Assembly: GCA_964502145.1 (NCBI GenBank)
Contig: CAZCVI010000010.1
Span: 44,068 to 108,067 of the forward strand
DNA length: 64,000 nucleotides
From: an uncultured Clostridia bacterium
Lineage (GTDB): Bacteria; Acidobacteriota; Aminicenantia; UBA2199
Reading direction: 5' to 3'
Shown here piece by piece: positions 7,651 through 52,159 of this stretch (position 1 is its first letter; each line of letters opens with the position of its first letter). A model generated the notes under the pieces. The model saw nothing but the letters and a program-made list of their open reading frames with translations, had not been told where the DNA came from and ran no database searches. A program made the translations under genes and the position numbers.

Positions 7651-7714
7651 TGGAATTAATAGACTTAATTATAATGGTGTTAATTGGATTAATTGGGGGG
7701 AGGGGTAAAAAAAA

Positions 7715-7787
7715 TGATCCCTGAAGGAATCGAACCTTCAACCTATTGATTAAGAGTCAATTGCTCTGCCAATTGAGCTAAGGGACC
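7715..7787 (-). tRNA. tRNA-Lys (anticodon CUU)
   Basis: Reverse complement folds as a canonical cloverleaf: GGTCCCT-TA-GCTC-AATTGGCA-GAGC-A-ATTGA-CTCTTAA-TCAAT-AGGTT-GAAGG-TTCGATT-CCTTC-AGGGATC-A. T-loop TTCGATT, 7-bp acceptor stem, CCA not encoded. Confidence 0.9.
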
Positions 7788-7986
7788 ATCGCTTTAAAGG
7801 TAAAGATAACATAATTCTTACCCATTGTCAACCCCCTCACAAGAAAAAGCCAGGAAAAAATCCAATACCCCATAGAAAAACTGCCAGTGAATGCTATTGC
7901 ATATTTTAAAAATCCGTGTATAATTAAATATTAATAATTTTGTTGTTAAGAGGTGTTAACATTTTAACAAAACAGGAGGAAATATA

Positions 7987-25108: not shown

Positions 25109-26749
25109 TTAACGACTGGGTCTGTAAATAGAATAGAGTCGTTCCAACAAAAAAAGCACGACTGCACACATGAATAAAATAGGCCATATGGGTTTGGTCC
25201 TGCCTTTGGCGGCAATAGGTTTTAGATTTTCAAGTTTTCCAGCAGAGCGGGGTTCCCGTTCGGTGTTGCCTTCATCTCTATGCAATACTAAACGATTAAC
25301 TGCAGGTGATGGCGCCTGGGGGGAGGTTAAACGATACAAGGGTGGCATGTCTCGTTTTTGCAATAACCAGCGCACGGCATTAAAAAAAACTACGATGGAA
25401 AAACGCCCGGTAATATCATTGGTTCCGCTAGGCAAACCGGGTACAAAAGCCCTGGCAGGATTTTCGGCCTGGGCTAACCAAGTGCTGCCATCCATACCAC
25501 GACACACGGGTACAAAACCTGCGGGTACATTTAGGGCAGGCAATCCCAAGGTTTCCACGACGTCGAGATTGACGTCCACTAAGAGTGGACTGGTCTCCAA
25601 GAAATCCCGGATTTCCACGGGGTTGGACCTGATCGGACCATAACCGGGCCCGATGATCAAGGTGGGAATATTGGCAGGGGTGTCTGTTCGAGTGGTTACC
25701 CTTAATTGAGGGGTGACATCATCATAAGTCCAACCCAACTGCAACATCATGTCCCGGTCAGGGATTTGCCAGTCTACGCGGATTTCCTGGCCACTACCGA
25801 TTTCTAAAACTGCACGATCATCGGAGTTATAGTCACCACCGGGAGAAAGAACAAACGTATACAAACCAGAACGGGTGGGCGCAAAACTTCCTTGCCACGT
25901 GTGGTTACGCTGCCACAGGATGGCTTCATCCTTGATTTTTGTGCCACCAGGGGCGGTGATGGAAATACTGGTAGTGGTGGGCGGCATTCCATAATAGGTC
26001 ACTTCCACCTGCACCTCGGCGACCACTCCAGTTAAGGGGTTCCGGGTGGCACGAAGAGAGGTAATACCGGTATTGTCCACGGGTAAACCAATATCACGCC
26101 AAATTATTTGGAGGTTTGGGTTTTCGGCCAGCCAAAGGGGCGCGGGGAGATCGCTGATTACCACTACATGGCTGACTTGGCAAGGTTCGGGATTTGGCGA
26201 GTGTTGCTTCAAAGAATTCAATAAACGGCGCAAGATGTCCAGATCAGTTCCTAAAGGTCGGGGAACTATATTTTTGGCAGCTTGACGTATGACTAAGGCA
26301 TCGCTGTTCTTTACGAGGTCCCGCCGTTCCAGATCAAGAGTGGAAAGCCGGAAACACAGGGGGCGGTTTTTTGCTGCTTTCTGACTGGTGGTCACGGCTT
26401 GCTCAACTTCCCGTAACGCGGCAGTCATTCGGGTTTCACCCTGCTGCCGGGTGTTCATACTGGCGGAGGTGTCCACAATAATCCATACACCGAGGGATTT
26501 ACTTTCCGCAGCATTAAACCTTCTCTCCATAAAAAAGAGAGCGGCAAGAATGGTGAGAAGAATCAGCAGTTGCATAAAAAAAGGAATGGTCAGATGGATT
26601 TTACCCCACCGGAGCCGCGGCTGCTCTTTCTGCGGGGGTGGCAGGTCCTTAAAAAAACGGGCGGCAGATAAGCGGCGGTGCAAGAACCGTGGATAGGTCA
26701 TATACACGACTACGAGTATGGCACAAGCAACGATTAGGAAAATACTCAT
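25109..26749 (-). CDS. von Willebrand factor A domain membrane protein (BatA/BatB-like)
   Basis: N-terminal TM helices, then the MIDAS motif 'IIVDTSASM'. Start overlaps the upstream DUF58 stop (ATGA). Last gene of the MoxR-DUF58-VWA operon. Confidence 0.65.
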   Translation of the reverse strand: MSIFLIVACAILVVVYMTYPRFLHRRLSAARFFKDLPPPQKEQPRLRWGKIHLTIPFFMQLLILLTILAALFFMERRFNAAESKSLGVWIIVDTSASMNTRQQGETRMTAALREVEQAVTTSQKAAKNRPLCFRLSTLDLERRDLVKNSDALVIRQAAKNIVPRPLGTDLDILRRLLNSLKQHSPNPEPCQVSHVVVISDLPAPLWLAENPNLQIIWRDIGLPVDNTGITSLRATRNPLTGVVAEVQVEVTYYGMPPTTTSISITAPGGTKIKDEAILWQRNHTWQGSFAPTRSGLYTFVLSPGGDYNSDDRAVLEIGSGQEIRVDWQIPDRDMMLQLGWTYDDVTPQLRVTTRTDTPANIPTLIIGPGYGPIRSNPVEIRDFLETSPLLVDVNLDVVETLGLPALNVPAGFVPVCRGMDGSTWLAQAENPARAFVPGLPSGTNDITGRFSIVVFFNAVRWLLQKRDMPPLYRLTSPQAPSPAVNRLVLHRDEGNTEREPRSAGKLENLKPIAAKGRTKPIWPILFMCAVVLFLLERLYSIYRPSR

Positions 26750-27705
26750 GGATTCTCCTTCATAAACAAACGTTGCAAGACGCGATCTTTGCCGAAGTGT
26801 TCTTCAAAAAAAGAGCCGGGTTGCATAAGGGTCTGTGGGGGCCACTGCCACGAAATAAAATCATTGGCCCCACGGCATACCTGTTCTTTAAAGAATTGCT
26901 TGTGGTTTTTGATACGGCTCTCTACTTCCAGCAGGGTGGGGGCATCGATTTCAAGGGGATGGTCTAGAACGGGCAGACCGGGGCCCTCTATTTTTCGGGC
27001 ACCCTGGCCTAAGAAGAATCGTTCATAAGGCCAACTATCAGTATCGACTAAGATGACCCAACGCATGCCGTCCTGGGCTTCAGCGATGCGGCGGGAGAGT
27101 TGAAGTCCATCAGAAGAAGTGGTGGGGTCAATATCAAAATAAAAATCACTGATAATCATCCAGATGACGGCAGGTTTGAGGTGGGGTTCGAGTACTCCAA
27201 GGTTGACTTTTTCAGTAGCGCAGTTGGTGGAGTAAAAGCGATTGAGAACGGGGCGGATGGCATTTAAACCACTGGCACCAAAAAGGGGTTCAAGACTGCC
27301 GCCGGGTCTACCGAATAAACGATGCAAGATCACGCGGTCAGCGGAACGTAATGTAATCCAAGCAACAGCTTCAGCGAGCCATGTGGCAATGAGTGCTTTG
27401 GGCATGGGTTCTGGTAGTAACATGGAGGGGCGGGTATCAATGGAAATGATGAGGGTGAGTTGTTCTTCGGCGACATAGGTGCGTACCAACAGGTCGTTGG
27501 CACCACCATGGCGGGCGGAAGCGCTCCAATCGACATGGCGAATATCATCGCCGGGCATATAGGGTCGATAATCATAAAACTCCAGACTCTGACCCTTACG
27601 CCGCATCTGATGACCACCGACAAGACCGGGACGCCGCTGACGGCGAGAGGAAAGACGGTAGCTTTCAAGTAATGAACGGGAGAGGGGAAGAGGGGGGGGA
27701 TTCAT
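26746..27705 (-). CDS. DUF58 protein (MoxR-associated)
   Basis: 'LEFYDYRPYMPGDDIRHVDWSASAR' is the DUF58 signature. Confidence 0.75.
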   Translation of the reverse strand: MNPPPLPLSRSLLESYRLSSRRQRRPGLVGGHQMRRKGQSLEFYDYRPYMPGDDIRHVDWSASARHGGANDLLVRTYVAEEQLTLIISIDTRPSMLLPEPMPKALIATWLAEAVAWITLRSADRVILHRLFGRPGGSLEPLFGASGLNAIRPVLNRFYSTNCATEKVNLGVLEPHLKPAVIWMIISDFYFDIDPTTSSDGLQLSRRIAEAQDGMRWVILVDTDSWPYERFFLGQGARKIEGPGLPVLDHPLEIDAPTLLEVESRIKNHKQFFKEQVCRGANDFISWQWPPQTLMQPGSFFEEHFGKDRVLQRLFMKENP

Positions 27706-27723: not shown

Positions 27724-28902
27724 CTATGCGCCTAATAATGCCTTGCGGAACTCTTCTTCAAAGATGCGGGGGTATTCATTTCCGCCGGGGGCAGTGGCAA
27801 GCGAGAAAGATTGGATGACGCGGGATAACAGGGCATCTTGCTGGGAGGCATTAAGGGTGGTTTGAGCGGTATGGGTACTAACGGCGCTTTTTTCCATGGT
27901 CAAGAAGGTTTCTTGCCAATCGAATTTTAATTTGAAGCGATGACGTAAGGTAGGAATAATAACGCGCGCCAAGGCGGGACCTTCTGCTCCCTCGGCACCG
28001 GGGATGAACATGGCAGACCACGCTTTAGCGCCCAGTAAAAGATTGGTGGCGGCACGGGGACCAAGCCCATAAACCATTAACTGCTCGACAATTTCCTTGG
28101 TTTTCTTGCGCTGGGCATCGGTAATGCCGGTCATTTCAGAGTACTTGTTGTTGGAAGCAAGAAACATGTTGAGGATATGAGTTTCCACGGCAGGGGATGA
28201 ACCCAATTGCAAAATACTCTCTTTTAATCGGTCATAAATGGAACGGGCCAGACCGGGTTCGCGGAACACGCGGAGTTTCTCCTCGGTAGGTTCGGGTTTG
28301 GCAGGTGCAGTGGAGAGGGTGCCAGCGGTTTTGTTTAAAATTAAGCGCAGGGTGCTGCTGTCGGGCACGGGAACATTGATCTTGAACATAAAACGATCGG
28401 CCTGGGCTTCGGGTAGGTTAAAGGTACCTTCATGATCAATGGGGTTCTGGGTAGCTAAAACCATAAAAGGAAGGTCGAGGGGGTATTTTTTGCCGAGGAC
28501 GGTGACCTGTTTCTCAGCCATGGCTTCCAGCATGGCAGATTGGGTTTTGGGGGTAGCGCGGTTGATTTCATCGGCCAGGAGGAGGGAGGTGAAGACCGGG
28601 CCTTTTTGGAAGACTAGCTTTTGCAGTTGCTGGCTCTCAAAATCAGGGGCATAGGTACCGGTAATATCAGCGGGCATAAGATCGGGGGTGAATTGAATCC
28701 TGCCGTAAGGTACGCCGAGGATCTGACCGAGAGTTTTAACCAGCTCGGTTTTGCCCAGGCCGGGGTTGCCTTCCAGCAAGACATGGCCTCCAGTGTAAAA
28801 CGCCACCAGGGTTAAACGGGTGACTTCATCCAGACCAAACATCTTTGACCTGACGCGTACTAATACGGCTTCTGCCAATTGTTCAATTTCTCTTTTTTGC
28901 AT
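27724..28902 (-). CDS. MoxR-family AAA+ ATPase
   Basis: 'VLLEGNPGLGKTELVKTLGQILGVPYGRIQFTPDLMPADITGT'. Stop is TAG. Confidence 0.85.
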   Translation of the reverse strand: MQKREIEQLAEAVLVRVRSKMFGLDEVTRLTLVAFYTGGHVLLEGNPGLGKTELVKTLGQILGVPYGRIQFTPDLMPADITGTYAPDFESQQLQKLVFQKGPVFTSLLLADEINRATPKTQSAMLEAMAEKQVTVLGKKYPLDLPFMVLATQNPIDHEGTFNLPEAQADRFMFKINVPVPDSSTLRLILNKTAGTLSTAPAKPEPTEEKLRVFREPGLARSIYDRLKESILQLGSSPAVETHILNMFLASNNKYSEMTGITDAQRKKTKEIVEQLMVYGLGPRAATNLLLGAKAWSAMFIPGAEGAEGPALARVIIPTLRHRFKLKFDWQETFLTMEKSAVSTHTAQTTLNASQQDALLSRVIQSFSLATAPGGNEYPRIFEEEFRKALLGA

Positions 28903-42133: not shown

Positions 42134-43165
42134 ATGAATGAACAGCAAAATGAACAGCAAAATGTGCAAATAAAGATGGATGCAGGAGTGGTTGTTCATC
42201 TGTGGAATCATTGTCATCATTGCCACGCGGAACCTATTATAGGACGCAGATATGAATGTCAGAGCTGTCCGTCGGGACCGGATATTGATCTGTGCGAACC
42301 CTGTTATGAATTGTGGGGCAGGGGTGAGGTTGAACATCCTGCCAAAGATAGTGTTGCGTCTGATTTAACTATTACAGAGCATCGGTTCGAGATGTTTGAG
42401 GGGAAACCTTTGGCGTCATTTCAGGACTGGTTGCTGGTAAAACATCCAGTGGCCGCAGACCCGATTGTGCCGAAACAGGCGGTGTTAAGACCGATTTTTT
42501 CTGCGGGAGTGGATTCAGTGATTGGGAGCTATGCCTTTGTAGCACGTTTGGAAGGAGCGAAGCGACCGCTGATTTTAACGGCATTGCATGTGATGGATGA
42601 ATTGATCAAGAAGTTGGGGATAGATTGTTCACTGGGGCGTGAAGATGATAAAATTAGAAATTATACAGGGAAAGAGTTACCTGCGGTGGTGACGGAAGTG
42701 AACCTGTTTGATGTGTTTGCAGCCAATTGGATGATGGCTCCGATAGGCAATGGGGGCCCGATGCTGGTGTTACCAGATGCGGCGACTGGCGCGGAAGAAC
42801 CCTATTCCAATCGAGATATTGCAGCCTTTTGGGTACATTCGGCGGATGCGGGACATTTTAATCCGTTACCATTGGCCCAATCGGCACCACGGGTAGGTGA
42901 GCCAGTCTGGTTGGCGGCACGTCGGATGGACAATTCAGGAAAACGAACGCTCAAAGCGGTGGTAGTTGAATGTACGGAACGTTCATTGGTATTTAAGTAC
43001 GAAGGGGATGGCGAGAAACCAAAGTACACGAGTGGTGCTCCTATTTTGAACGGGAAGGGCGAAGTGGTGGGGATCAATGTGGGCGGCGGTCGATTAAACG
43101 AGGAAAACCTGGGACATGCGAACCATATAGAGAATATCCGCAGGCACCTGAGTAATGCGAGTTAA
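42134..43165 (+). CDS. ZZ-type zinc finger fused to a trypsin-like (S1) serine protease domain
   Basis: 'HCHHCHAEPIIGRRYECQSCPSGPDIDLCEPCY...HP' fits the ZZ pattern C-x2-C...G.RY.C..C..D.DLC..C...H. Protease: His 'LTALHV', Asp, Ser 'YTSGAPIL...GINVGG'. GAGGAG RBS. Confidence 0.55.
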   Translation: MNEQQNEQQNVQIKMDAGVVVHLWNHCHHCHAEPIIGRRYECQSCPSGPDIDLCEPCYELWGRGEVEHPAKDSVASDLTITEHRFEMFEGKPLASFQDWLLVKHPVAADPIVPKQAVLRPIFSAGVDSVIGSYAFVARLEGAKRPLILTALHVMDELIKKLGIDCSLGREDDKIRNYTGKELPAVVTEVNLFDVFAANWMMAPIGNGGPMLVLPDAATGAEEPYSNRDIAAFWVHSADAGHFNPLPLAQSAPRVGEPVWLAARRMDNSGKRTLKAVVVECTERSLVFKYEGDGEKPKYTSGAPILNGKGEVVGINVGGGRLNEENLGHANHIENIRRHLSNAS

Positions 43166-43491
43166 TCGGTTTTTGTTAGTAAATGGGAACCATAATGCCG
43201 TTTGAAGCGGGTGGAGGAGTATTTTTCCAGTTTCCATTGGGGGATTTTGCAAACTGGGCAGACTTTGTTGAACCATTTATTGCGAAGCCAGCGGGCGGAA
43301 CGGCTGTTGCGAGAATTGTTGATGAGAAATGTTTTGTTGCAATGGGTGGTGATGCGGGCTTGTTCCCCGATTTTTTCAACGGTTTTGATGCCATGTAAAA
43401 TGCCTTGACGGGAAGGCCATAGTTTGATCGTGTCGATCAATTTGAATAATTCAATACGTTTGCGGTAGTACCGCCTGGGTTGTTCGGTCAT
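43162..43491 (-). CDS. pylSn: pyrrolysyl-tRNA synthetase N-terminal tRNA-binding domain protein
   Basis: 'LWPSRQGILHGIK...INNSRNSRSARWLRNKWFNKVCPVCK' parallels the PylS N-terminal 'LWMSRTGTLHKIK...[26 protein letters not shown]'. Last gene of the pyl operon. Confidence 0.7.
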   Translation of the reverse strand: MTEQPRRYYRKRIELFKLIDTIKLWPSRQGILHGIKTVEKIGEQARITTHCNKTFLINNSRNSRSARWLRNKWFNKVCPVCKIPQWKLEKYSSTRFKRHYGSHLLTKTD

Positions 43492-43653: not shown

Positions 43654-44538
43654 TCATTGCTGATTTTTGCGAAAATAATGGACGGCGGCGTCAACGGCCA
43701 TAACGGCGGTGCCGATTTGCAGGGGATCGTGCAAGAGACGGAGTTTTATCTGTTGGATGGCAGCACTGGTTAATCCCAAAGGCACACCGGGCGCGGCGAT
43801 ATAGGTGTGTGGATTGATGTCTGATTTTTGGATGGTATTGGCGGCATTGGTGGCTTCAATGATGAACGAGTGACGCGATAACGCGGGAGCCAAAGCAGGT
43901 TCAATAGAGATGCGGGATGAGCTGCCGGTTATCCTCATAATTTCCATGGCTGCGGCAGAACTGCGTTGTTGGTGGATATCAAACAAAGATACTCGCGCCC
44001 CGCGTTTGATAGCTTCGATGGCAGAATACGTCCCGACTGCTCCACAGCCAATGATTAACAGCTCCCTGTCTTTTAAGCCCACTTTGGGCGTTGGAGCTTG
44101 ATGGCGGATCATCAATTCCAATCCAGCTACAAAACCACGGGCAGTAGATGGGGTATTGTCCACAACGCGACTGTTGCGGGTGTCCAGCGCAATAAAACGT
44201 TTGTCATCGGCCATCATCACAATGGCGGCGCCAGCTTCCACTGCCTCGGCTAGACCCGCAACATCGGGCTCACGGGTAACAAAAGATTTAAATCCAATGT
44301 GCTGCACAATAGCAGCCACAGTGCTGGAAAAACCTCCAATCACACCCTGACCAGACATGATTGGAACAACCGCGATAAGAGTGGATGGAATACAGACTTG
44401 AAGCTGCTGGCTGGTGATGCCCAAGGCATAACAGGCAATCCCTTGCAAGGTCGTGCCTGTTTGCAATTGCAAAAGAGTGTCGTAGAGAAGGAGCTGGGCA
44501 GTTAAGTCTTTGATGTCGTTTACGGTCAGACGAGTCAT
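43654..44538 (-). CDS. pylD: pyrrolysine biosynthesis dehydrogenase
   Basis: 'IAVVPIMSGQGVIGGFSSTVAAIVQHIGFKSFVT', 'AAIVMMADD', 'FIIEATNAANTI', 'APGVPLGL' parallel Methanosarcina PylD blocks. AGGAAA RBS. Confidence 0.85.
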   Translation of the reverse strand: MTRLTVNDIKDLTAQLLLYDTLLQLQTGTTLQGIACYALGITSQQLQVCIPSTLIAVVPIMSGQGVIGGFSSTVAAIVQHIGFKSFVTREPDVAGLAEAVEAGAAIVMMADDKRFIALDTRNSRVVDNTPSTARGFVAGLELMIRHQAPTPKVGLKDRELLIIGCGAVGTYSAIEAIKRGARVSLFDIHQQRSSAAAMEIMRITGSSSRISIEPALAPALSRHSFIIEATNAANTIQKSDINPHTYIAAPGVPLGLTSAAIQQIKLRLLHDPLQIGTAVMAVDAAVHYFRKNQQ

Positions 44539-44545
44539 GTTTTTC

Positions 44546-45685
44546 CTAGCGGATAATGCTTTGCCTTATATTTTGAATAACGCGGTCGCTTTTTTGCTGG
44601 GCCGACTGGAGGTCTGTGGCTTCAATGATCAAGGTAGCCACCCATGAATAGGCACTGGGGCTATAATTGGTGATGGCTTCATCGGCACCAAAAAAGTCGT
44701 GGCACAGAAACAACGGGCCAACCTCTGACATAATATGCTCACCACTAATTCGTATCCCACGGGGGGAAACTTCAATGTGCTGGTAAATCGCACCCCGTTT
44801 TTGGTCAGCAGCTTTTATAACTTTTTGACTGGTAAAACATTGGGCCAATAACGGCATCATGTTCCACCCGGAAGATTGGAAAACAGCGGTGGGAGTCTGA
44901 CTGGGGAAACGGGCGTCAATCTCCAATACTTTTAATTGGTTATCATGAAGAATAATTTCAACATCCATGATCCCCCGCAACTGGATGGATTGTGCAATGT
45001 GCAAGGAAATCTTCTCGAACTGCTTTACCTGGGTAGGAGATAATAACGTGGGGGCCGATACTCGTTTACAATCATAACTGTCATCCATGTCAAGGTCAGT
45101 GACTTGCAAGGGAATATAATTCCCGGGAGTGCCCATCACTTCAAGAGAATAGGACGGCCCTTCGACGTATTCCTGAATGACCCAGCCGGGAGGCGGCAGG
45201 GAGGCGGAAAAGGAGGAAAAGAACTCTTCCAGTTGCGGTCTATCATTAAAAAGCCGAACGCCACGACTACCACTACTGCTCTCAGGTTTGGCGATAACTG
45301 GGAATGAACAATTTGGCCAGGGTTTGGGGGCAGGCACGCCAAGTTCTGCAAAAAGATGGTCGGAACGGAGCTTGGAAGAAGAAATAGCATAAGTCGCTGC
45401 ATCAAAGGCAAAAGGAATGGCAGAGGTGAGACTCCACTGGTGTAATGCAGCGAGTGCGGCGGCATTCTCAGTGGCGGGGACAACAAGGTCTATATCTTTG
45501 ATATCTCTTATGCAAGATTGCCATTTCGACTGGTCCGTGACATCCAGCTCAATGAAACGATGGCACATTTGGGCAGCGGCCACATGGGGGTGTTTGTCGA
45601 TTAAAAGGGTTTCCCATCCGGCATGATGGGCCAAATAAGCGACTTCTACGCCTTGAAGACTGCCGCCGACGATAAGGATTTTCAT
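44546..45685 (-). CDS. pylC: 3-methylornithine--L-lysine ligase (ATP-grasp)
   Basis: 'KILIVGGSLQGVEVAYLAHHAG', 'LEIDARFPSQTPT' (identical to the PylC block). AGGAG RBS. Start overlaps the pylB stop (ATGA). Own stop is TAG. Confidence 0.85.
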   Translation of the reverse strand: MKILIVGGSLQGVEVAYLAHHAGWETLLIDKHPHVAAAQMCHRFIELDVTDQSKWQSCIRDIKDIDLVVPATENAAALAALHQWSLTSAIPFAFDAATYAISSSKLRSDHLFAELGVPAPKPWPNCSFPVIAKPESSSGSRGVRLFNDRPQLEEFFSSFSASLPPPGWVIQEYVEGPSYSLEVMGTPGNYIPLQVTDLDMDDSYDCKRVSAPTLLSPTQVKQFEKISLHIAQSIQLRGIMDVEIILHDNQLKVLEIDARFPSQTPTAVFQSSGWNMMPLLAQCFTSQKVIKAADQKRGAIYQHIEVSPRGIRISGEHIMSEVGPLFLCHDFFGADEAITNYSPSAYSWVATLIIEATDLQSAQQKSDRVIQNIRQSIIR

Positions 45686-46770
45686 GATTTAAGCTCCTGG
45701 TTTTTTAAAACGCGGTTCTTTATCCAATCTTGGTATTGCTGGTGGGAAGCGATTTGTAAACCGCACTCTGTCAATATGGTTAACACGTTATCGGTGGTTC
45801 TGCGGGCATCATCAATATCCAGTGAGGATTGCGCTACTCCAGCCAGTCCCTGTTGGGGTGGCACGATGGAAGTCACAACATTGGCACCTGCATCCATACG
45901 CCGCTTCAAGCCAGCCAGCCCTTCGACATCCAATGTGGCGGGAATGAGTCGATCAGGGAACAAAATACGCATGAGCGCGATAAGAATTAATTCGGTCAAA
46001 GGTTCTGGAAAAGGGAAATGGGCCATCGGTGTGCCCTGTTGCGGCACAAAATTCATGGCCCGCACTTGGTCAGCGTTACTGGCCCGCATCTCGGTTAGTG
46101 AATGGGCGATATCATGGGAAGTTTCGCCCACGCCCACGAGGATGCCTTCTTCGGTTAACATCCCCAGTTGATGGGCTTGGTGTTTGCTATTTAAACGGGT
46201 CAAATAATCCTGGCCGGGTCTAAGCTGTTGGAAAAGAGTTGGGTTGTGAGTCTCCTGGTAACAAGCAAACCAGGAAGCACCGGCAACGGCAAACTGGGCC
46301 AATATAGGGGGGGGGACTACGCCGGGGGAGATCATAATGGGAAGAAAAACGGCGGTTTTTATAGCTTGCACCAAGCGGATCAAGGAGTGGAAACCATGCT
46401 CACCTGAAGGGTCTTCGCCCATGGTCAGATCAATCAGATGAACACCAGAACGTGCCAGTTGAATGGCGGCTTCAATGATTTCGGTTTCTGCTTTCCTGTA
46501 CCTGAAACGCGGCGAAAGGGTATTCTGGGCACGGTAAAAACAAAAATTACAATTGTTGCGACAATAGGTGCTAATATAAAGGAAACCATAGAGAAAAACA
46601 TGGTTCCCGAAATACTGCTGACGGATAGAACGGGCAGTGCTAAAAAGGGCTTCCAATAGCTGGGGTTGGCGAAGTTGCAGGATAGTGGTGATTTCCTTCT
46701 GGGTGAGGGCGTGCTGGTGGGAGGCTTTTGCCAGTATGGTGTCCAATATAGGCGGGGGAGTGAAATGCAC
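45682..46770 (-). CDS. pylB: 3-methylornithine synthase (radical SAM lysine mutase)
   Basis: 'YFGNHVFLYGFLYISTYCRNNCNFCFYRAQN', 'LIDLTMGEDP', 'LPIMISPG', 'YQETH', 'GANVVTSIVPP' parallel PylB. GTG start with GAGG RBS. Confidence 0.85.
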   Translation of the reverse strand: MHFTPPPILDTILAKASHQHALTQKEITTILQLRQPQLLEALFSTARSIRQQYFGNHVFLYGFLYISTYCRNNCNFCFYRAQNTLSPRFRYRKAETEIIEAAIQLARSGVHLIDLTMGEDPSGEHGFHSLIRLVQAIKTAVFLPIMISPGVVPPPILAQFAVAGASWFACYQETHNPTLFQQLRPGQDYLTRLNSKHQAHQLGMLTEEGILVGVGETSHDIAHSLTEMRASNADQVRAMNFVPQQGTPMAHFPFPEPLTELILIALMRILFPDRLIPATLDVEGLAGLKRRMDAGANVVTSIVPPQQGLAGVAQSSLDIDDARRTTDNVLTILTECGLQIASHQQYQDWIKNRVLKNQELKS

Positions 46771-46779
46771 TGGTGCGCC

Positions 46780-47622
46780 TCAAATGTTTAACCGAATACC
46801 GTTGAGATAGGCGAGACTGCGACCCATTTTACCAAGGTTGTGGCTGTTCTGAGTGACCATCAGCAAACGTTCCAGCCCGAATCCGATGCCCACCCATGGT
46901 TCGACAATGCGCCAGGCCCGGTCCAACGGATGGGGACCGATGGCAGCCGAACCCACCTCTATTTTATCTTTTCCGGCGACCACGTCGATGGTCTCACCAT
47001 AGACGTTAGAGGTTTCGGTTTCCAGAGTATAATCGGTTAATCCGGCGGTGCGGGTCACCAGGGCGGCGAGTTCTTCCAGTCGTGCTTGCCGGTTTTCTAA
47101 AGGTAATCCCATTTCCACGAGATTGAGCATGGTAAATTCACTGGAATGTAACGAACCCTGGGACTCCTTGCGAAAACAAGAACCGACTTCAAAGATAGAC
47201 ACGGGTTTCTCCCATAAACGCAATAAATCCTTTAATACATAATATAAATGAGGGGCCAGCATGGGACGGAGACATTTGTCCTTGTCCAACCAATATACCT
47301 GGGAGAAGAGGGGATGGGTTTCGTCGATGGTCATTTTGGCCAATAGCCCGCGAGACATGATGGTGGGGGTAATGACCTGCACAAAACCGGCGGCGGTAAG
47401 GGTTTCTATCAATTGGCTTTCTAAGCGGCACAGGGCGGGCCTGTGCTCATGTTCCCGGAAATAAGTTAATTGGGTTCTGGCTTGTTTGATATAATGATTT
47501 TCTAATTTATGAAAAGAGTTGTCCCGGTCTGCTGGGCTGGTGAATGCTTGTGATAGTTCCTGGGGGGGGACTTCTAGTTCGATCAATCTTCGATGTTGGA
47601 CTTCAGACCAAGTGAGTGTCAT
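46780..47622 (-). CDS. pylSc: pyrrolysyl-tRNA synthetase catalytic domain (bacterial split form)
   Basis: 'PTIMSRGLLAKMTIDETHPLFSQVYWLDKDKCLRPMLAPHLYYVL...IFEVGSCFRKESQGSLHSSEFTMLN' is near-identical in pattern to Desulfitobacterium PylSc. 280 aa. Confidence 0.9.
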   Translation of the reverse strand: MTLTWSEVQHRRLIELEVPPQELSQAFTSPADRDNSFHKLENHYIKQARTQLTYFREHEHRPALCRLESQLIETLTAAGFVQVITPTIMSRGLLAKMTIDETHPLFSQVYWLDKDKCLRPMLAPHLYYVLKDLLRLWEKPVSIFEVGSCFRKESQGSLHSSEFTMLNLVEMGLPLENRQARLEELAALVTRTAGLTDYTLETETSNVYGETIDVVAGKDKIEVGSAAIGPHPLDRAWRIVEPWVGIGFGLERLLMVTQNSHNLGKMGRSLAYLNGIRLNI

Positions 47623-47624
47623 GG

Positions 47625-47700
47625 ATTGCCTGGGGAATTATGGGAATGGGAGTTATGGGAATTATGGGAAGAATGGGGGTTATGGGAAAAGAGGGGTAGT
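47625..47700. repeat. tandem 9-bp array (TTATGGGAA-like units x ~7) in the pylSc 5' leader
   Basis: gaattatgg gaatgggag ttatgggaa ttatgggaa gaatggggg ttatgggaa, read directly. Confidence 0.8.
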
Positions 47701-47773
47701 GGTGTGTGAGCCAGCGGTTTGGGTAATCTGTTTAAATTGCTTGCCATATTATACCTACTCAAACTAATAAACG

Positions 47774-47844
47774 GCGAGGAGTTCGGGAGTTGCACCCGAC
47801 TATATGGATTTAGAATCCATACGATCCACTTACGATCCACTCCC
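47774..47844 (-). tRNA. pylT: tRNA-Pyl (anticodon CUA, amber suppressor)
   Basis: Minus-strand sequence GGGGAGT-G-GATC-GTAAGTG-GATC-G-TATGGA-TTCTAAA-TCCATA-TAG-TCGGG-TGCAACT-CCCGA-ACTCCTC-G(CC). 6-bp anticodon stem, CUA anticodon, 3-nt variable loop, one nt between acceptor and D stems, G73 discriminator. Immediately upstream of pylSc. Confidence 0.8.
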
Positions 47845-47858
47845 CATTCGCCGAAATA

Positions 47859-47887
47859 TATCTTAAAATAATATTCCTTAATTGTCA
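47859..47887 (-). promoter_or_regulatory. sigma70-like promoter for pylT (-35 TTGACA, 17-bp spacer, -10 TAAGAT)
   Basis: Minus strand TTGACAattaaggaatattatttTAAGAT. The -10 ends 14 nt before tRNA position 1. Confidence 0.45.
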
Positions 47888-47916
47888 ATTGTTGGGTTCT
47901 TTTTTTTGCCACGGGT

Positions 47917-48618
47917 TTATCGGAGAATACGTTGGCGGCAATTAAATGTCTGGCATGTGTCGCAGAAAGAATAATCATTATCGAAATCATGAATACTGGC
48001 AGGCCCTGCGACCAATACACCGGAAATAGATTTTATAGGCACCATTAAAAAACTGGGATTGAGTTGGATACCAATCGCCTCGGGTTGGAGATACTGGAAT
48101 AATTTTCCCTGGCCACTGATGTGCCAACCGCAGTAACCAGGACTGTAAAGCAATACTTTTAGTCCTGCTCTGGGTTCAGGCAAGCGGTTTAAAAAGAGTG
48201 TCTCTGTACAAAGGGCTGCTTTATCGGCACCATAAGAGGCGATGGTGTCCAACATATACCCCAACGCAAATCCATTGGCCTGGGTTTTCATGAGTTGATC
48301 GATTTTGGCACTCACGGCGGGTCCGAGGGTGCAGGCAAACAAACCCAATTGATGGGCACGGGGGAAAATATGTTCCAACGGTGTATCCTTTTCATTCTGG
48401 CCGAGACCGGGATATATCAGGCTGAATTGGGTGCTGGAAAGATCAGCTATCAAACCGATGGGAGCAGCCAATTGCATAAACAACTCTGCTGCGGACCGAT
48501 AGAGAGCCTTGACCCGTTCTGGGGGTTGGGTGCCACGGGGTATCCCTTGCATGAAGAAAATTTCCTCTTCATCGGGGGCTATAACTTCAATAGATAGATT
48601 AAATGTTTCTTTATTCAT
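47917..48618 (-). CDS. MetH activation-domain-like protein (Met_synt_B12-like), tentative
   Basis: 'LLYSPGYCGWHISGQGKLFQYL...LNPSFLMVPIKSISGVLVAGP' resembles the SPGY...W...P.KS.SG core of the methionine-synthase reactivation domain. Start overlaps the stop of the MttB-like gene. Confidence 0.4.
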   Translation of the reverse strand: MNKETFNLSIEVIAPDEEEIFFMQGIPRGTQPPERVKALYRSAAELFMQLAAPIGLIADLSSTQFSLIYPGLGQNEKDTPLEHIFPRAHQLGLFACTLGPAVSAKIDQLMKTQANGFALGYMLDTIASYGADKAALCTETLFLNRLPEPRAGLKVLLYSPGYCGWHISGQGKLFQYLQPEAIGIQLNPSFLMVPIKSISGVLVAGPASIHDFDNDYSFCDTCQTFNCRQRILR

Positions 48619-50099
48619 TAGTATCCGGTGACATCAGGAAGTGTGCTGATACCGTGGCGGTGGGCTTCGGCTTTCATGATTTGGATTAATTGCTCTTTGA
48701 TAGCGGGATTGAGGGAAGATGGCTGATAGGATTCGAGCAGGTTTAACATCTCCTTGTGCGCCCGTTCGCCCAGGGTCAAACTGCCTTCTTCCTGCCAGCG
48801 GGACTGGTTGGTGCGATCAATGATGGGGCCGGGAAAATAATGTTCGGCTTTAAGAAAACGGCGGGTATGTTTGGATATCAACAGGTGCTGGTCTTTCAAT
48901 AATTCCTGGTACCTGGGCACAATGGGGAAATCCTCCTGGGGATCAATACCATTAAGCATACGAAACACCATGCCGCATATTTCATTGTCAACAATCAATT
49001 TTTCTATACTAAATGTATTGACAAAATCGAGCATCCCGGGGCCGGAAATACTATTGATCCCGGATAAGGCGGCCATAGTGGCACCCATGGCTGTTTCCAA
49101 ACCGGCCTGGGCGTCCAGAAGCTTGGCATCGCTCAACGCGATGTAAGCCTGGGTGGGAATACCGAGGTATTTCCCGATTTCATTGTAACCGCAATCCAGC
49201 ATCTGGGTTTCTATGGCGCCCAGCGGCGTGGTTTCGTAGCGGACATCAAAGGAAGCAGGGGCACCACCATATAATAATGGCGTGCCCGGGTTACTTAATT
49301 GACTGATTACAATACCGCTGAGTGTTTCGGCGGTGTGCCCCACCAATGAACCCACGAGGGTAACTGGAGCGGTGAAACCAGCCAGGGGCATGGAAATCAA
49401 TTCGATGGGAATACCACTTCTGCCGCAATCGACAATGTCCTGGCATATTCTGGCACTCCATTTTAACGGGGTGGTGGAACAGCAGGAAAAAATGGTCAGG
49501 GGTTTTGCTTTTAATGCAGTTTCATTGCCCCGGACAGCCACCTGCATCTCTTTCATTACTTTGAAGCCCTCGGCACTGAAGGTACCGGTAACCACGGGTT
49601 TTTCTCCGAAAAGAAGGTTCAGGTAGAGGCGGTAGCTGTCGGATATTTTTTCACTGACATCGGCGGGAACAAAGGCGGTACTCTGGGCGGCAATATGCTT
49701 TAACTGGGCGGTCACCTTGACAAAACGAATATAGTCGGCGGTATTGGGCTGGCGCGACTGTTGGGTAGTGGAATCCAAGATGTGCAAGGCGGAAGAAGCG
49801 GGGGTAAAATGAATGGTGTAACCGGAAAAATCATGGGTCTCATTGCCTTTGACATCATATAACTTGAAGGTAGGGGGCACACTGTCCAACGCGAGGTCGA
49901 TCATAGCGCCGGTGATAAACACATTGTGGGCATCGGAATGGGGCACGGGTTCGACGGTGGCACCAAAATCGGATAGCATAAGGACTGTCTTTTTATCGTA
50001 AATTTTTATACCGATAGTGCTTAGAATGTCGCGTGCTTCAGATATAATACGTTCGATCAACTCTTTGTTCAAAAATCTTAGATTGGGTCTGACTGCCAT
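48618..50099 (-). CDS. MttB-superfamily (trimethylamine / quaternary-amine : corrinoid) methyltransferase, no in-frame amber codon
   Basis: ~493 aa. N-terminal 'LRFLNKELIERIISEARDILSTIGIKIYDKKTVLMLSDFGATV' and overall length fit PF06253. Continuous ORF with no internal TAG. Start set at ATG 50099 (GGAGAA RBS). The track ORF starts at TTG 50141. Confidence 0.65.
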   Translation of the reverse strand: MAVRPNLRFLNKELIERIISEARDILSTIGIKIYDKKTVLMLSDFGATVEPVPHSDAHNVFITGAMIDLALDSVPPTFKLYDVKGNETHDFSGYTIHFTPASSALHILDSTTQQSRQPNTADYIRFVKVTAQLKHIAAQSTAFVPADVSEKISDSYRLYLNLLFGEKPVVTGTFSAEGFKVMKEMQVAVRGNETALKAKPLTIFSCCSTTPLKWSARICQDIVDCGRSGIPIELISMPLAGFTAPVTLVGSLVGHTAETLSGIVISQLSNPGTPLLYGGAPASFDVRYETTPLGAIETQMLDCGYNEIGKYLGIPTQAYIALSDAKLLDAQAGLETAMGATMAALSGINSISGPGMLDFVNTFSIEKLIVDNEICGMVFRMLNGIDPQEDFPIVPRYQELLKDQHLLISKHTRRFLKAEHYFPGPIIDRTNQSRWQEEGSLTLGERAHKEMLNLLESYQPSSLNPAIKEQLIQIMKAEAHRHGISTLPDVTGY

Positions 50100-50166
50100 A
50101 ACATTGTTCTCCATAGGGTGTGGCCGTTTAATCCGGGCCAATTACGGGGTTTTGGGGGTTGAGATT

Positions 50167-51243
50167 TTATTGTTGTACTTGTTGCCGTTTCCATTGACGA
50201 TAGCGTTTCATATATTCCTCGGCGATGGTGGGGGAGTCCATGCCGAGCTCTTTGGCATAGGTTGAAACACACCATCGCAGGTAGCCTGGTTCGGGTAGGT
50301 CTTCGAATCGTTCTAACTCGATATTGACTAAAATTTTATAGGAGATTTTTGATGTTCTTGCCAGATCATGGATGCCTAAGCCCATTCGTTCGCGATATTT
50401 TTTAAAGGTTCGGCCTTTAATAATAGCGGCTCCTCCTGTCTCATAATTTTCCATGTTCGGGTCTATCAGCGTGTCTTCCATGGGGTTGGTGGCGGAGGGA
50501 TCGATCACTCGTATCATGGTGGAATAGGGTGAGCGGCCATTTTCCAATTCCGGGGGGATATCTTCCGGTTGTGTGGGTTCAGGGAATATGTATTCGGGTA
50601 GTTCTAATGGGTCTTCTGCAATGAAGAGTTCCTGGGTATCTTGGAAATTATTTATTTTTAAGGGTTCCTGTGTGTTCAGCAGTTCCGGTGTTGGGAACGC
50701 CTCTAGTACTTCTTCTGGTTCTGGTTCTCCCAGATCAGGGATTTCTGGAAGTGCAATTTGTTCTGGTAACTCCAGATGCTCGGGGATAGTGGGGGGCATC
50801 CAGGTGTCACTACGTTCCACGATTGCAGAACTCTCAATTTTTTCTTCTATTTTTTCTCCTACTATTTCTTCTGATATTTCTTCTAATATTTCTTCTTCTT
50901 TAAAGAATAGGGGAGCATAGGGATCATTCAGCTCTTCTTCAATATCTTCAAAATCATCGACATCGAAAATTTCTTTGGCTGTTTTTTCTTTTTCGAACTT
51001 CTCTTTTTCAATGCGGTCTTTTTCAACGAGGTAATGAAAAAGTCCAGAATACGCCTCGTGGATGTCGGTCATGATTTTTTGTTTATCTTCTTCGGGGAAT
51101 TCGTCATCTATAGCTTCCATGACGATGGAATCAGTGGAAAAGACTTTTTTCAGGCGTTCATAGGCTGTTTTTATTTCAGCCATCGAGGGATTTTCTTCTA
51201 GCTCAAGGATATTCAAATATTGTTTGTATTTTTTTTCATCCAT
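50167..51243 (-). CDS. acidic (Glu/Asp/Pro-rich) protein with C-terminal RodZ-type helix-turn-helix (HTH_25/XRE-like)
   Basis: C-terminus 'GRTFKKYRERMGLGIHDLARTSKISYKILVNIELERFEDLPEPGYLRWCVSTYAKELGMD'. Start at internal ATG 51243, just after the parA-like stop. Confidence 0.4.
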   Translation of the reverse strand: MDEKKYKQYLNILELEENPSMAEIKTAYERLKKVFSTDSIVMEAIDDEFPEEDKQKIMTDIHEAYSGLFHYLVEKDRIEKEKFEKEKTAKEIFDVDDFEDIEEELNDPYAPLFFKEEEILEEISEEIVGEKIEEKIESSAIVERSDTWMPPTIPEHLELPEQIALPEIPDLGEPEPEEVLEAFPTPELLNTQEPLKINNFQDTQELFIAEDPLELPEYIFPEPTQPEDIPPELENGRSPYSTMIRVIDPSATNPMEDTLIDPNMENYETGGAAIIKGRTFKKYRERMGLGIHDLARTSKISYKILVNIELERFEDLPEPGYLRWCVSTYAKELGMDSPTIAEEYMKRYRQWKRQQVQQ

Positions 51244-52159
51244 TGTCGATATCCGGAATTTTAACCTGTTTGTCTTCGAGCAGATTAAGCACGATCTCAC
51301 GAAGTTCGTTGGAGGTGGAGGCGGGGGAAATGAATTGGGGAGTAGAGCTGGAGTGTTTAACAAACTTCCAGAAAAAATCGGTGTATTGAATGAAACCGCT
51401 CAATCTGGCATCGATTCCGAAATATTTTGTCAGTACACTTTTCACGGCGCTACCTGTTTCCAGGTGCTCGCTGTTTTTGATCTGGTTGACAATAATATAA
51501 ATCTTAAACTCGGCCAATGCTTTTTCAACCAGGGTGCGAATTTCCGGTGAAATTTCCATGATATGCTGGATCAACTCTTTAATGCTGGAGATTTTATTGG
51601 GGAGGCGGTTGTCCCATGCTTTTTTGGCAACATCCTTAAGTCCATGATCGCCCAGCAAGATGTTTAATTTGCGGAACAGCACCTTTTTGATAAAATGATA
51701 GAGATTTTCAATAGAGGTGATTTCTGGCAGGATGACGACGATCATTTTATCGGCCATCAAGAAGGTATCAATCGTATTGTGGCCTGAACCGGCACCGAGA
51801 TCAATGAGCACATAATCGGCGCTGATATTCTTGATATGCCGGTACAACTTTAATTTTTGAGTTTGTTTGAGGCCGATAGTATTGAGGGAACGGACATCGC
51901 CAGTCACAAAGCGCAGGTTGGGAATGGCGGTATCCACGATGATTTCGCTTAAGGGAACTTTTTTTTCAAAGAAGTCGGTCAATGAATATTTGGGTTTTGG
52001 AACCTTGAGAAAGGAGTGCAGGTTGGCACCGCCTAAATCGCCATCAATCAGGGTAACCCGTTTGCCCAGATGGGCCAGATTCAATCCCAGGGAGCTGGTG
52101 ACGAAGCTTTTTCCAGTACCGCCTTTACCGCCGCCAATAGCCCATATTTCGGAATTCAT
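51236..52159 (-). CDS. ParA/MinD-family P-loop ATPase
   Basis: Deviant Walker A 'IGGGKGGTGKSFVTSSLG'. 'LIDGDLGGANL'. AAGAGG RBS. Confidence 0.75.
   Translation of the reverse strand: MNSEIWAIGGGKGGTGKSFVTSSLGLNLAHLGKRVTLIDGDLGGANLHSFLKVPKPKYSLTDFFEKKVPLSEIIVDTAIPNLRFVTGDVRSLNTIGLKQTQKLKLYRHIKNISADYVLIDLGAGSGHNTIDTFLMADKMIVVILPEITSIENLYHFIKKVLFRKLNILLGDHGLKDVAKKAWDNRLPNKISSIKELIQHIMEISPEIRTLVEKALAEFKIYIIVNQIKNSEHLETGSAVKSVLTKYFGIDARLSGFIQYTDFFWKFVKHSSSTPQFISPASTSNELREIVLNLLEDKQVKIPDIDNG

What the first reader, a model, noticed from the sequence alone, without database searches (positions are those of the whole stretch)
47774..47887. tRNA-Pyl(CUA) gene with its own TTGACA-17-TAAGAT promoter, missing from the ORF track and masked by a spurious 133-aa ORF
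The 71-nt minus-strand sequence folds with all the peculiarities of tRNA-Pyl. It has a CUA anticodon in a 7-nt loop closed by a 6-bp stem (UAUGGA/UCCAUA). The variable loop is 3 nt. One nucleotide separates the acceptor and D stems. The acceptor stem has a single G-U pair and a G73 discriminator, and CC is encoded without the A. The T-loop UGCAACU and acceptor GGGGAGU/ACUCCUC resemble the bacterial (Desulfitobacterium-like) tRNA-Pyl rather than the archaeal form. The D-loop is 7 nt because of an 11-nt internal duplication (agtggatcgta x2). That is unusual and may matter for PylSn recognition.
Basis: seen in the sequence. Interest (0 to 1): 0.7.

Follow-up and report, generated by a model that had tools for sequence, protein, structure and literature searches.

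The report
Ordinary bacterial pyrrolysine tRNA gene
This is a genuine, intact pyrrolysine tRNA gene with its own conserved promoter at the head of a complete bacterial pyrrolysine operon, and its supposedly odd 7-base D-loop is the normal, already published form for this group of bacteria.

Summary
A 71-nt tRNA-Pyl(CUA) lies at 47775..47845 (-), followed by CC. ARAGORN calls it. A covariance model built only from 50 related tRNA-Pyl sequences finds it as the single hit in the window (89.2 bits, E 1.6e-17). It sits directly upstream of pylSc-pylB-pylC-pylD-pylSn, all above their NCBIfam cut-offs. The TTGACA-17-TAAGAT promoter is conserved in sequence and spacing in five related loci. The 133-aa ORF over it is spurious.

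The D-loop is 7 nt in 66 of 70 tRNA-Pyl genes of this PylSc clade (Aminicenantes, Desulfobacterota, Gemmatimonadota and others). The window's tRNA has the same length as its relatives and is 67/71 identical to the nearest. The perfect 11+11 repeat comes from conserved positions plus two D-loop substitutions relative to the closest-repeat relative, not from an insertion. Enlarged (6-8 nt) D-loops in bacterial "class S" tRNA-Pyl are already published (Beattie et al. 2023). That catalogue already lists Aminicenantes systems, and Deb, Gem and Spi class-S pairs worked in E. coli.

Verdict: a new member of a known kind, of low interest. Side notes: the neighbouring MttB-family gene has Leu at the Pyl codon, and a 9-bp repeat array fills the pylT-pylSc spacer.

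The parts
47775..47845 (-). pylT, the tRNA-Pyl(CUA) gene, 71 nt from G1 to discriminator G73. Acceptor 47845-47839 / 47782-47776; G8 47838; D-stem 47837-47834 / 47826-47823; D-loop 47833-47827 (GUAAGUG); anticodon stem 47821-47816 / 47808-47803; anticodon CUA 47813-47811; variable loop 47802-47800; T-stem 47799-47795 / 47787-47783; T-loop 47794-47788.
   Evidence: ARAGORN. Custom covariance model R1: 89.2 bits, E 1.6e-17, all 22 pairs standard. Parse. Generic Rfam tRNA model: 27.4 bits, just under its gathering score of 29, as for relatives.
47773..47774 (-). CC after the discriminator; the next base is G, so the CCA end is not fully encoded
   Evidence: Sequence. The nearest (Aminicenantes-type) relatives encode only C or nothing, whereas the deltaproteobacterial relatives encode CCA. 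Completion by a CCA-adding enzyme is an inference.
47820..47841 (-). Perfect tandem 11-mer AGTGGATCGTA x2 (tRNA positions 5-26). It is a by-product of the conserved GAUC...GAUC D-stem and flanking bases, not an insertion.
   Evidence: TRF. Relatives match at 5-9 of 11 of the same positions with the same tRNA length. L001 differs from a perfect repeat by 2 D-loop bases.
47883..47888 (-). -35 hexamer TTGACA of the pylT promoter
   Evidence: Promoter scan. Invariant in 6 of 6 aligned loci.
47860..47865 (-). -10 hexamer TAAGAT, 17 nt after the -35 and 14 nt before G1 of the tRNA
   Evidence: Promoter scan. TAAGAT in 5 of 6 aligned loci and TAATAT in one, with 17-nt spacing in all and a variable spacer sequence.
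47623..47772 (-). 150-nt pylT-pylSc spacer. It is C-rich, G-poor and unstructured, has no terminator hairpin, and contains a 9-bp tandem array (47633..47688).
   Evidence: TRF. Fold z = +2.9. No terminator-like site here. No similarity to the spacers of relatives.
46780..47622 (-). pylSc, pyrrolysyl-tRNA synthetase catalytic subunit
   Evidence: TIGR02367: 337.8 bits against a cut-off of 178.
45682..46770 (-). pylB, methylornithine synthase
   Evidence: TIGR03910: 458.8 bits against a cut-off of 348.
44546..45685 (-). pylC, 3-methylornithine--L-lysine ligase (ends in TAG)
   Evidence: TIGR03909: 413.5 bits against a cut-off of 248. Stop codon.
43654..44538 (-). pylD
   Evidence: TIGR03911: 247.2 bits against a cut-off of 150.
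43162..43491 (-). pylSn, small tRNA-binding subunit of PylRS
   Evidence: TIGR03912: 128.1 bits against a cut-off of 51.
47619..48020 (-). Spurious 133-aa GTG ORF that overlaps the end of the upstream gene, the promoter, the tRNA and the repeat spacer
   Evidence: ORF list and translation. No Pfam hit. tblastn matches in relatives fall only on the promoter/tRNA-encoded residues.

Best explanation
This is pylT, a functional amber-suppressor tRNA-Pyl of the bacterial split-synthetase type ('class S'). It is the first gene of a pylT-pylSc-pylB-pylC-pylD-pylSn operon on a contig from an uncultured bacterium whose PylSc is closest to Aminicenantes MAGs. Shown: the gene, its fold, its fit to a family-specific covariance model, the complete neighbouring pyl genes, and a phylogenetically conserved -35/-10 promoter. 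Inferred: transcription starts about 7 nt after TAAGAT. RNase P removes a short leader. Because there is no terminator in the 150-nt spacer, the same transcript probably continues into pylSc and the following genes, and the tRNA is cut out of it. The 3' end is trimmed and completed to CCA by a CCA-adding enzyme. PylBCD make pyrrolysine from two lysines. PylSc, helped by PylSn, charges the tRNA using the conserved elements G73, G1:C72, G8 and the GAUC/GAUC D-stem. The charged tRNA then reads UAG in client mRNAs that lie outside this window. The 7-nt D-loop is simply the standard D-loop size of this clade.
For: ARAGORN calls tRNA-Pyl(cta). The cloverleaf is the MFE fold. Model R1, built from 50 distinct relatives without the window, gives 89.2 bits, E 1.6e-17, full length, and is the only hit. 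The relatives' alignment supports the fold: 99.3% of cells are paired, 8 pairs have changes on both sides, and 0 of 500 shuffles reach the observed values. All five pyl proteins are above their NCBIfam equivalog cut-offs, in the classical bacterial order pylTScBCDSn (order as described in PMC3941956). tRNA-Pyl lies just upstream of pylSc in 69 of 80 related loci. All published D. hafniense identity elements are present: G73, G1:C72, G8, G10:C25, A11:U24, also U33/A37 and the 3-nt variable loop. The invariant D-loop base G13 and the near-invariant A16 of the relatives are retained. The promoter is conserved in 5 relatives with a variable spacer. There is no terminator in the spacer. Per Beattie et al. 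2023, all but one of the class S tRNAs tested gave amber suppression in E. coli, and the tested set included the Gemmatimonadetes tRNA, whose catalogued sequence has a 7-nt D-loop.
Against: There are no expression or aminoacylation data for this locus. The generic Rfam tRNA model scores only 27.4 bits against a gathering score of 29. This is a property of the class: L002 scores 25.3 bits, and the published Olavius delta-1 pylT gets no hit at E <= 1. No UAG-containing client gene is in the window, and the adjacent MttB-family gene has Leu at the Pyl codon. TAG still ends 6 of 49 long ORFs, including pylC. Co-transcription with pylSc is inferred only from the absence of a terminator.
Confidence: 0.92

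Rival explanations
1. The 11-nt tandem repeat is a real duplication or slippage event that enlarged the D-loop from 5 to 7 nt. On this reading it creates an atypical tRNA-Pyl whose recognition, for example by PylSn, differs from that of its relatives.
For: The repeat is perfect, 11+11, and only the window reaches 11/11 among 66 comparable tRNAs. Textbook descriptions give a 5-nt D-loop (PMC1851642, PMC7609411, PMC11764691).
Against: The D-loop is 7 nt in 66 of 70 members of the clade, and the window's tRNA has the same length as all of them. L001 already matches at 9 of 11 positions, so two point changes in variable D-loop positions are enough. GAUC always matches, and the following G matches in 89% of relatives. 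An 11-nt insertion into a 5-nt-loop ancestor would give a much longer D-arm than is seen. D-loops of 6-8 nt in class S are published. PylSn contacts the variable arm, not the D-loop.
Confidence: 0.03
2. The gene is a decaying relic (tRNA pseudogene) in an organism that no longer uses pyrrolysine.
For: The neighbouring MttB-family gene has Leu instead of Pyl. No UAG client is in the 64-kb window. pylC itself ends in TAG.
Against: All 22 base pairs are standard and all known identity elements are intact. All five pyl ORFs are full length and above their equivalog cut-offs. The promoter is conserved. The Leu-type MttB is conserved at 64-69% identity in Aminicenantes relatives (L001, L048) that also keep intact pyl clusters, so it is a separate non-Pyl family member and not a recently converted client.
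Confidence: 0.04
3. The 133-aa ORF (47619..48020, -), or its 42-aa His/Ser/Asn-rich tail (47619..47747), is a real protein-coding gene.
For: It is an open frame of 133 codons. The tail begins with ATG and its stop overlaps the pylSc start (ATGA).
Against: There is no Pfam hit at E <= 1. tblastn matches in relatives cover only residues ~45-98, the translated promoter and tRNA DNA. The ORF overlaps the 3' end of the upstream gene. The tail is the translation of a 9-bp DNA repeat, and relatives' spacers are unrelated and 25-198 nt long.
Confidence: 0.03

Closest known systems
Bacterial 'class S' tRNA-Pyl with enlarged D-loop (Deltaproteobacteria, Gemmatimonadetes, Spirochaetales, Aminicenantes; Beattie et al. 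2023, PMC7615293; Olavius delta-1 symbiont pylT, PMC1976440)
   Same: Same architecture base for base: 7-bp acceptor, G8, GAUC/GAUC D-stem, 7-nt D-loop starting with G, 6-bp anticodon stem, CUA anticodon, 3-nt variable loop, UGCAACU-type T-loop and G73. It is 67/71 identical to the L002 (Aminicenantes MAG) tRNA. It has the same position upstream of pylSc.
   Different: Four substitutions relative to L002. D-loop sequence GUAAGUG, which happens to complete a perfect 11-nt tandem repeat. CC but not CCA is encoded, whereas deltaproteobacterial members encode CCA. The spacer to pylSc is a longer, repeat-filled 150 nt.
Desulfitobacterium hafniense tRNA-Pyl (crystal structure with PylSc, PDB 2ZNI; identity study PMC1851642)
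   Same: Split PylSn/PylSc system. G8 instead of U8. G1:C72 and G73. G10:C25 and A11:U24. 6-bp anticodon stem. 3-nt variable loop. U54/A58 and purine 57 in the T-loop. No G18G19 or T-Psi-C.
   Different: D. hafniense and other Firmicutes have a 5-nt D-loop (e.g. GATC-GAATG-GATC) and a UGAAACU T-loop. The window has 7 nt and UGCAACU.
Methanosarcina barkeri / M. mazei tRNA-Pyl (class N)
   Same: [quoted passage not shown]
   Different: The archaeal form has U8, a 5-nt D-loop and a fused PylS. Its sequence details are otherwise from my memory and were not re-derived here.

Membership tests
tRNA-Pyl (pylT) | CUA anticodon in a 7-nt loop | tested here: met
   ARAGORN anticodon cta at position 33; loop UUCUAAA.
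tRNA-Pyl (pylT) | Anticodon stem of 6 bp instead of 5 | tested here: met
   UAUGGA/UCCAUA, all Watson-Crick. Four of the six pairs show compensatory changes among relatives.
tRNA-Pyl (pylT) | Variable loop of 3 nt | tested here: met
   UAG between the anticodon and T stems.
tRNA-Pyl (pylT) | One nucleotide between the acceptor and D stems (G8 in bacteria) | tested here: met
   Single G at 47838; invariant in 50 relatives.
tRNA-Pyl (pylT) | Small D-loop of 5 nt (classical definition from M. barkeri and D. hafniense) | tested here: not met
   The D-loop is 7 nt. This does not exclude membership. 66 of 70 tRNA-Pyl genes of this clade have 7 nt, and 6-8-nt D-loops are documented for class S (PMC7615293 Suppl. 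Note 2). The classical criterion is too narrow.
tRNA-Pyl (pylT) | No G18G19 in the D-loop and no T54-Psi55-C56 in the T-loop; U54/A58 and purine 57 kept | tested here: met
   D-loop GUAAGUG has no GG. T-loop UGCAACU has U54, G55, C56, A57 and A58 (criteria from PMC1851642).
tRNA-Pyl (pylT) | Identity elements G73 and G1:C72 (plus G10:C25 and A11:U24 for bacterial PylSc) | tested here: met
   Discriminator G at 47775, G1:C72, and D-stem GAUC/GAUC (elements).
tRNA-Pyl (pylT) | Genomic linkage to pylS and pylBCD | tested here: met
   pylSc, pylB, pylC, pylD and pylSn lie immediately downstream, all above their NCBIfam cut-offs.
tRNA-Pyl (pylT) | Charged with pyrrolysine by PylRS and decodes UAG | not testable with these tools
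   Needs aminoacylation or suppression assays, or proteomics.
Sigma-70-type promoter | -35 and -10 hexamers at 16-18-nt spacing, conserved among relatives, with a mapped transcription start | tested here: inconclusive
   Consensus match 10/12 with 17-nt spacing. Hexamers and spacing are conserved in 5 relatives while the spacer varies. The transcription start is not testable here.
PYLIS element (Rfam RF02510) | Structure directly downstream of an in-frame UAG in mttB | tested here: not met
   The hit at 49037..49136 scores 42.6 bits, but UUG (Leu) replaces UAG at model positions 1-3. Aligned residue 336 is Leu here and a stop in deltaproteobacterial MttB.

The most novel reading that the evidence does not exclude
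The element with possible novelty is the pylT-pylSc spacer and not the tRNA. It is a lineage-specific, C-rich, G-poor, unusually unstructured 150-nt stretch made largely of a 9-bp tandem array, and two independent assemblies break inside it. It could be a copy-number-variable or Rho-loading (rut-like) element that sets how much transcription from the tRNA promoter continues into the synthetase and biosynthesis genes. That would make it a control on genetic-code expansion. Separately, because the adjacent MttB-family gene is a conserved Leu variant, this lineage might use pyrrolysine in clients other than the classical methylamine methyltransferases.
Probability: 0.06. Interest if true: 0.5.

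Novelty: new member of a known kind. Interest (0 to 1): 0.13.

Why it matters
The practical value is for annotation. Generic tRNA covariance models miss this class: the window scores 27.4 bits and L002 25.3 bits against a gathering score of 29, and the published Olavius pylT gets no hit. ORF callers then fill the gap with a spurious ORF. Recognising pylT marks the contig as coming from a UAG-recoding bacterium, which changes how TAG-interrupted genes elsewhere in that genome should be read. The comparison also shows that the review-level statement "tRNA-Pyl has a 5-nt D-loop" is wrong for this PylSc clade (69 relatives sampled from Aminicenantes, Desulfobacterota, Gemmatimonadota and others), where 7 nt is the norm. 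This is already noted in a 2023 supplement, so it is a clarification and not a discovery.

Tried and rejected
(1) Rfam at gathering thresholds found no tRNA here. The permissive search gave 27.4 bits with a misaligned D-arm. Controls on L002 and L021 show this is typical of the class and not evidence against the gene.

(2) The Rfam PYLIS_3 hit in the upstream MttB-family gene looked like a possible Pyl client. It is rejected because the codon is TTG (Leu), as in the Aminicenantes orthologues.

(3) I scanned the window for genes with in-frame TAG. The only substantial same-frame pair (27724..28902 and 26746..27705) is an ordinary MoxR AAA_3 plus DUF58 gene pair. The other cases are short read-throughs past normal stops.

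(4) The 42-aa His-rich ORF in the spacer has no Pfam hit, no conservation, and is the translation of a DNA repeat.

(5) The 9-bp repeat is not dispersed elsewhere in the window.

(6) I looked for a terminator or attenuator hairpin in the spacer and found none. The RNA is less structured than all 200 shuffles.

(7) I tried to name the organism. The exact PylSc is in NCBI, JGI, Logan and ENA but carries no name. The contig is JGI Ga0207193_1000107. The species is not among the GTDB representatives returned; the best locus kept in that scan is 73% identical.

(8) A search of the Beattie et al. supplement for the window's exact 5' tRNA sequence found nothing, but that file is truncated as stored.

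Full report
**1. What is there**

On the minus strand, 47845..47775 reads GGGGAGU G GAUC GUAAGUG GAUC G UAUGGA UUCUAAA UCCAUA UAG UCGGG UGCAACU CCCGA ACUCCUC G, followed by CC and then G. ARAGORN calls it tRNA-Pyl with anticodon cta at position 33. The minimum-free-energy fold is the cloverleaf: -29.4 kcal/mol, z = -3.4, and 1 of 200 shuffles folds as well.

- a 6-bp anticodon stem;
- a 3-nt variable loop;
- one nucleotide (G8) between the acceptor and D stems;
- one G-U pair in the acceptor stem;
- a G discriminator;
- CC encoded without A;
- a 7-nt D-loop;
- a perfect tandem 11-mer, AGTGGATCGTA x2, at 47820..47841.

**2. Is it more than chance, and does a covariance model accept it?**

The generic Rfam tRNA model gives no hit at its gathering score. 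In a permissive search it gives 27.4 bits against a gathering score of 29, with the D-arm unaligned. This is a property of the class. The nearest relative (L002) scores 25.3 bits, and the published pylT of the Olavius delta-1 symbiont (L021) gets no hit at E <= 1.

I therefore built a family-specific test. PylSc relatives were used to fetch 80 loci from reference genomes. ARAGORN finds a tRNA-Pyl just upstream of pylSc in 69 of them. Fifty distinct 71-nt sequences, none from the window, align without gaps and support the cloverleaf:

- 99.3% of cells are paired;
- 8 of 22 pairs have changes on both sides;
- 0 of 500 shuffles reach the observed values;
- the slid-partner controls collapse.

The covariance model built from them finds exactly one hit in the 64-kb window, at 47775..47845 (-). 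It scores 89.2 bits, E = 1.6e-17, full length, with no non-standard pair.

**3. Context**

Immediately downstream on the same strand are:

- pylSc (46780..47622; TIGR02367, 337.8 bits);
- pylB (45682..46770; 458.8 bits);
- pylC (44546..45685; 413.5 bits);
- pylD (43654..44538; 247.2 bits);
- pylSn (43162..43491; 128.1 bits).

All are well above their NCBIfam equivalog cut-offs (Pfam agrees). This is the classical bacterial order pylTScBCDSn (PMC3941956).

The window matches JGI metagenome contig Ga0207193_1000107, 135 kb. Its nearest named relatives are Candidatus Aminicenantes MAGs, at about 73% identity.

**4. Promoter**

TTGACA (47888..47883), a 17-nt spacer and TAAGAT (47865..47860) form the best promoter-like match in the region at 10/12. 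The scan as a whole finds no more sites than shuffles do: 3 found against 3.1 expected. The stronger evidence is comparative. In L002, L004, L005 and L049 the same TTGACA and TAAGAT recur at the same 17-nt spacing, and L048 has TAATAT, while the spacer sequence between them varies.

The -10 hexamer ends 14 nt before G1 in the window, L002, L005 and L048, and 28 nt before it in L004 and L049. A transcription start about 7 nt after the -10 and removal of the leader by RNase P are inferences. There is no terminator-like hairpin between pylT and pylSc. The 150-nt spacer is less structured than all 200 shuffles, z = +2.9. The promoter therefore probably also drives the operon, which is again an inference.

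**5. The "unusual D-loop" and "11-nt duplication"**

This part of the interpretation does not hold.

- Parsing all 70 tRNAs gives a D-loop of 7 nt in 66, 6 nt in 3 and 8 nt in 1.
- The window's tRNA has the same length as its relatives and is 67/71 identical to L002 and 66/71 to L001, L005 and L048.
- The two 11-mers that are identical in the window already match at 5-9 of 11 positions in relatives. GAUC always matches, and the following G matches in 89%.
- L001 (AGTGGATCGAA / AGTTGATCGTA) is two D-loop substitutions away from a perfect repeat.

The repeat is therefore a by-product of the self-complementary GAUC...GAUC D-stem and its conserved flanks, plus a couple of changes at variable loop positions. 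No bases were inserted. The D-loop positions that are conserved across the clade (G13 invariant, A16 >= 90%) are retained.

Reviews still describe a 5-nt D-loop for M. barkeri and D. hafniense (PMC1851642, PMC7609411, PMC11764691), and Firmicutes sequences do show 5 nt. However, Beattie et al. [quoted passage not shown] Note 2). Their catalogue includes Gemmatimonadetes and Aminicenantes systems. All but one of the class S tRNAs they tested gave suppression in E. coli, and S+-GemPylRS and S+-DebPylRS were active.

The suggested relevance to PylSn is not supported by what is known. PylSn binds the variable arm, while the D-stem and G8 are read by PylSc (PMC7609411).

**6. Function**

All published identity elements of the bacterial system are present: G73, G1:C72, G8, G10:C25, A11:U24, U33/A37 and the 3-nt variable loop. 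The most likely mechanism is the standard one. PylBCD synthesise pyrrolysine. PylSc with PylSn charges this tRNA. The tRNA reads UAG in client mRNAs. The CCA end is completed post-transcriptionally, because the nearest relatives encode only C or nothing after the discriminator.

No client gene is in the window. The in-frame-TAG scan yields only a MoxR/DUF58 gene pair and short read-throughs.

**7. The "spurious ORF"**

The 133-aa GTG ORF 47619..48020 (-) overlaps the end of the upstream gene, the promoter, the tRNA and the repeat spacer. It has no Pfam match. In relatives, only the part that translates the promoter and tRNA DNA (residues ~45-98) finds tblastn matches. It is spurious.

**8. Verdict**

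The feature advertised as unusual is the norm for its clade and is already published. It is a new member of a known kind and of low interest. Its main value is as an annotation correction and as a flag that the source genome recodes UAG.

Noticed in passing
window 48618..50141 (-); Rfam hit 49037..49136 (-): The MttB-family gene two genes upstream of pylT scores 337 bits on TIGR02369, below that model's 525 cut-off. It has TTG (Leu, residue 336) exactly where about 22 deltaproteobacterial MttB genes next to pylT carry an in-frame stop (Pyl). The Aminicenantes orthologues in L001 (69% identity) and L048 (64%) also have Leu. The Rfam PYLIS_3 hit (42.6 bits) is coding-sequence homology with UUG in place of UAG. 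The pyl operon here therefore sits next to a conserved non-Pyl MttB-family gene, and the true Pyl clients are unknown.
   Followed up: partly
window 47633..47688 (-), within the pylT-pylSc spacer 47623..47772: A 9-bp tandem array (TTCCCATAA-like, ~6.6 copies) sits in a C-rich, G-poor spacer that is unusually unstructured (z = +2.9). It is not found elsewhere in the window and is absent from relatives' spacers, which are 25-198 nt and mutually unrelated. L003 has its own tandem repeats, and L001 and L049 have hairpins. Two independent Logan assemblies (SRR7760392, SRR7760391) both end inside the array, 54 nt before the pylSc ATG. This could reflect assembly difficulty or copy-number variation. 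A rut-like role is pure speculation.
   Followed up: partly
window 47917..48618 (-): A 233-aa protein lies between the MttB-family gene and pylT. Its only family signal is a weak Pfam match to the activation domain of B12-dependent methionine synthase (PF02965, 31 bits), and it has no NCBIfam hit. It may be a corrinoid-related partner of the non-Pyl MttB.
   Followed up: no
window-wide; pylC 44546..45685 (-): Among 49 long ORFs the stop codons are TAA 29, TGA 14 and TAG 6. pylC itself ends in TAG. UAG is therefore still a regular stop in this Pyl-encoding organism, at about 12% of stops.
   Followed up: partly
L001-L006, L048, L049 versus L007-L080: Aminicenantes-type pylT genes do not encode the CCA end. 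They have C or nothing after the discriminator, and the window has CC. Nearly all deltaproteobacterial-type pylT genes encode CCA.
   Followed up: partly
window 50167..51363 (-) and 51236..52159 (-): Upstream of the MttB-family gene are a 398-aa protein with a C-terminal RodZ-like HTH_25 domain and a MinD/ParA-type ATPase. As listed, the two ORFs overlap by ~128 nt, so one start codon is probably called too early.
   Followed up: no
window 7714..7788 (-): The only other tRNA in the window is a canonical tRNA-Lys(CUU), at 73.4 bits on the Rfam tRNA model.
   Followed up: no
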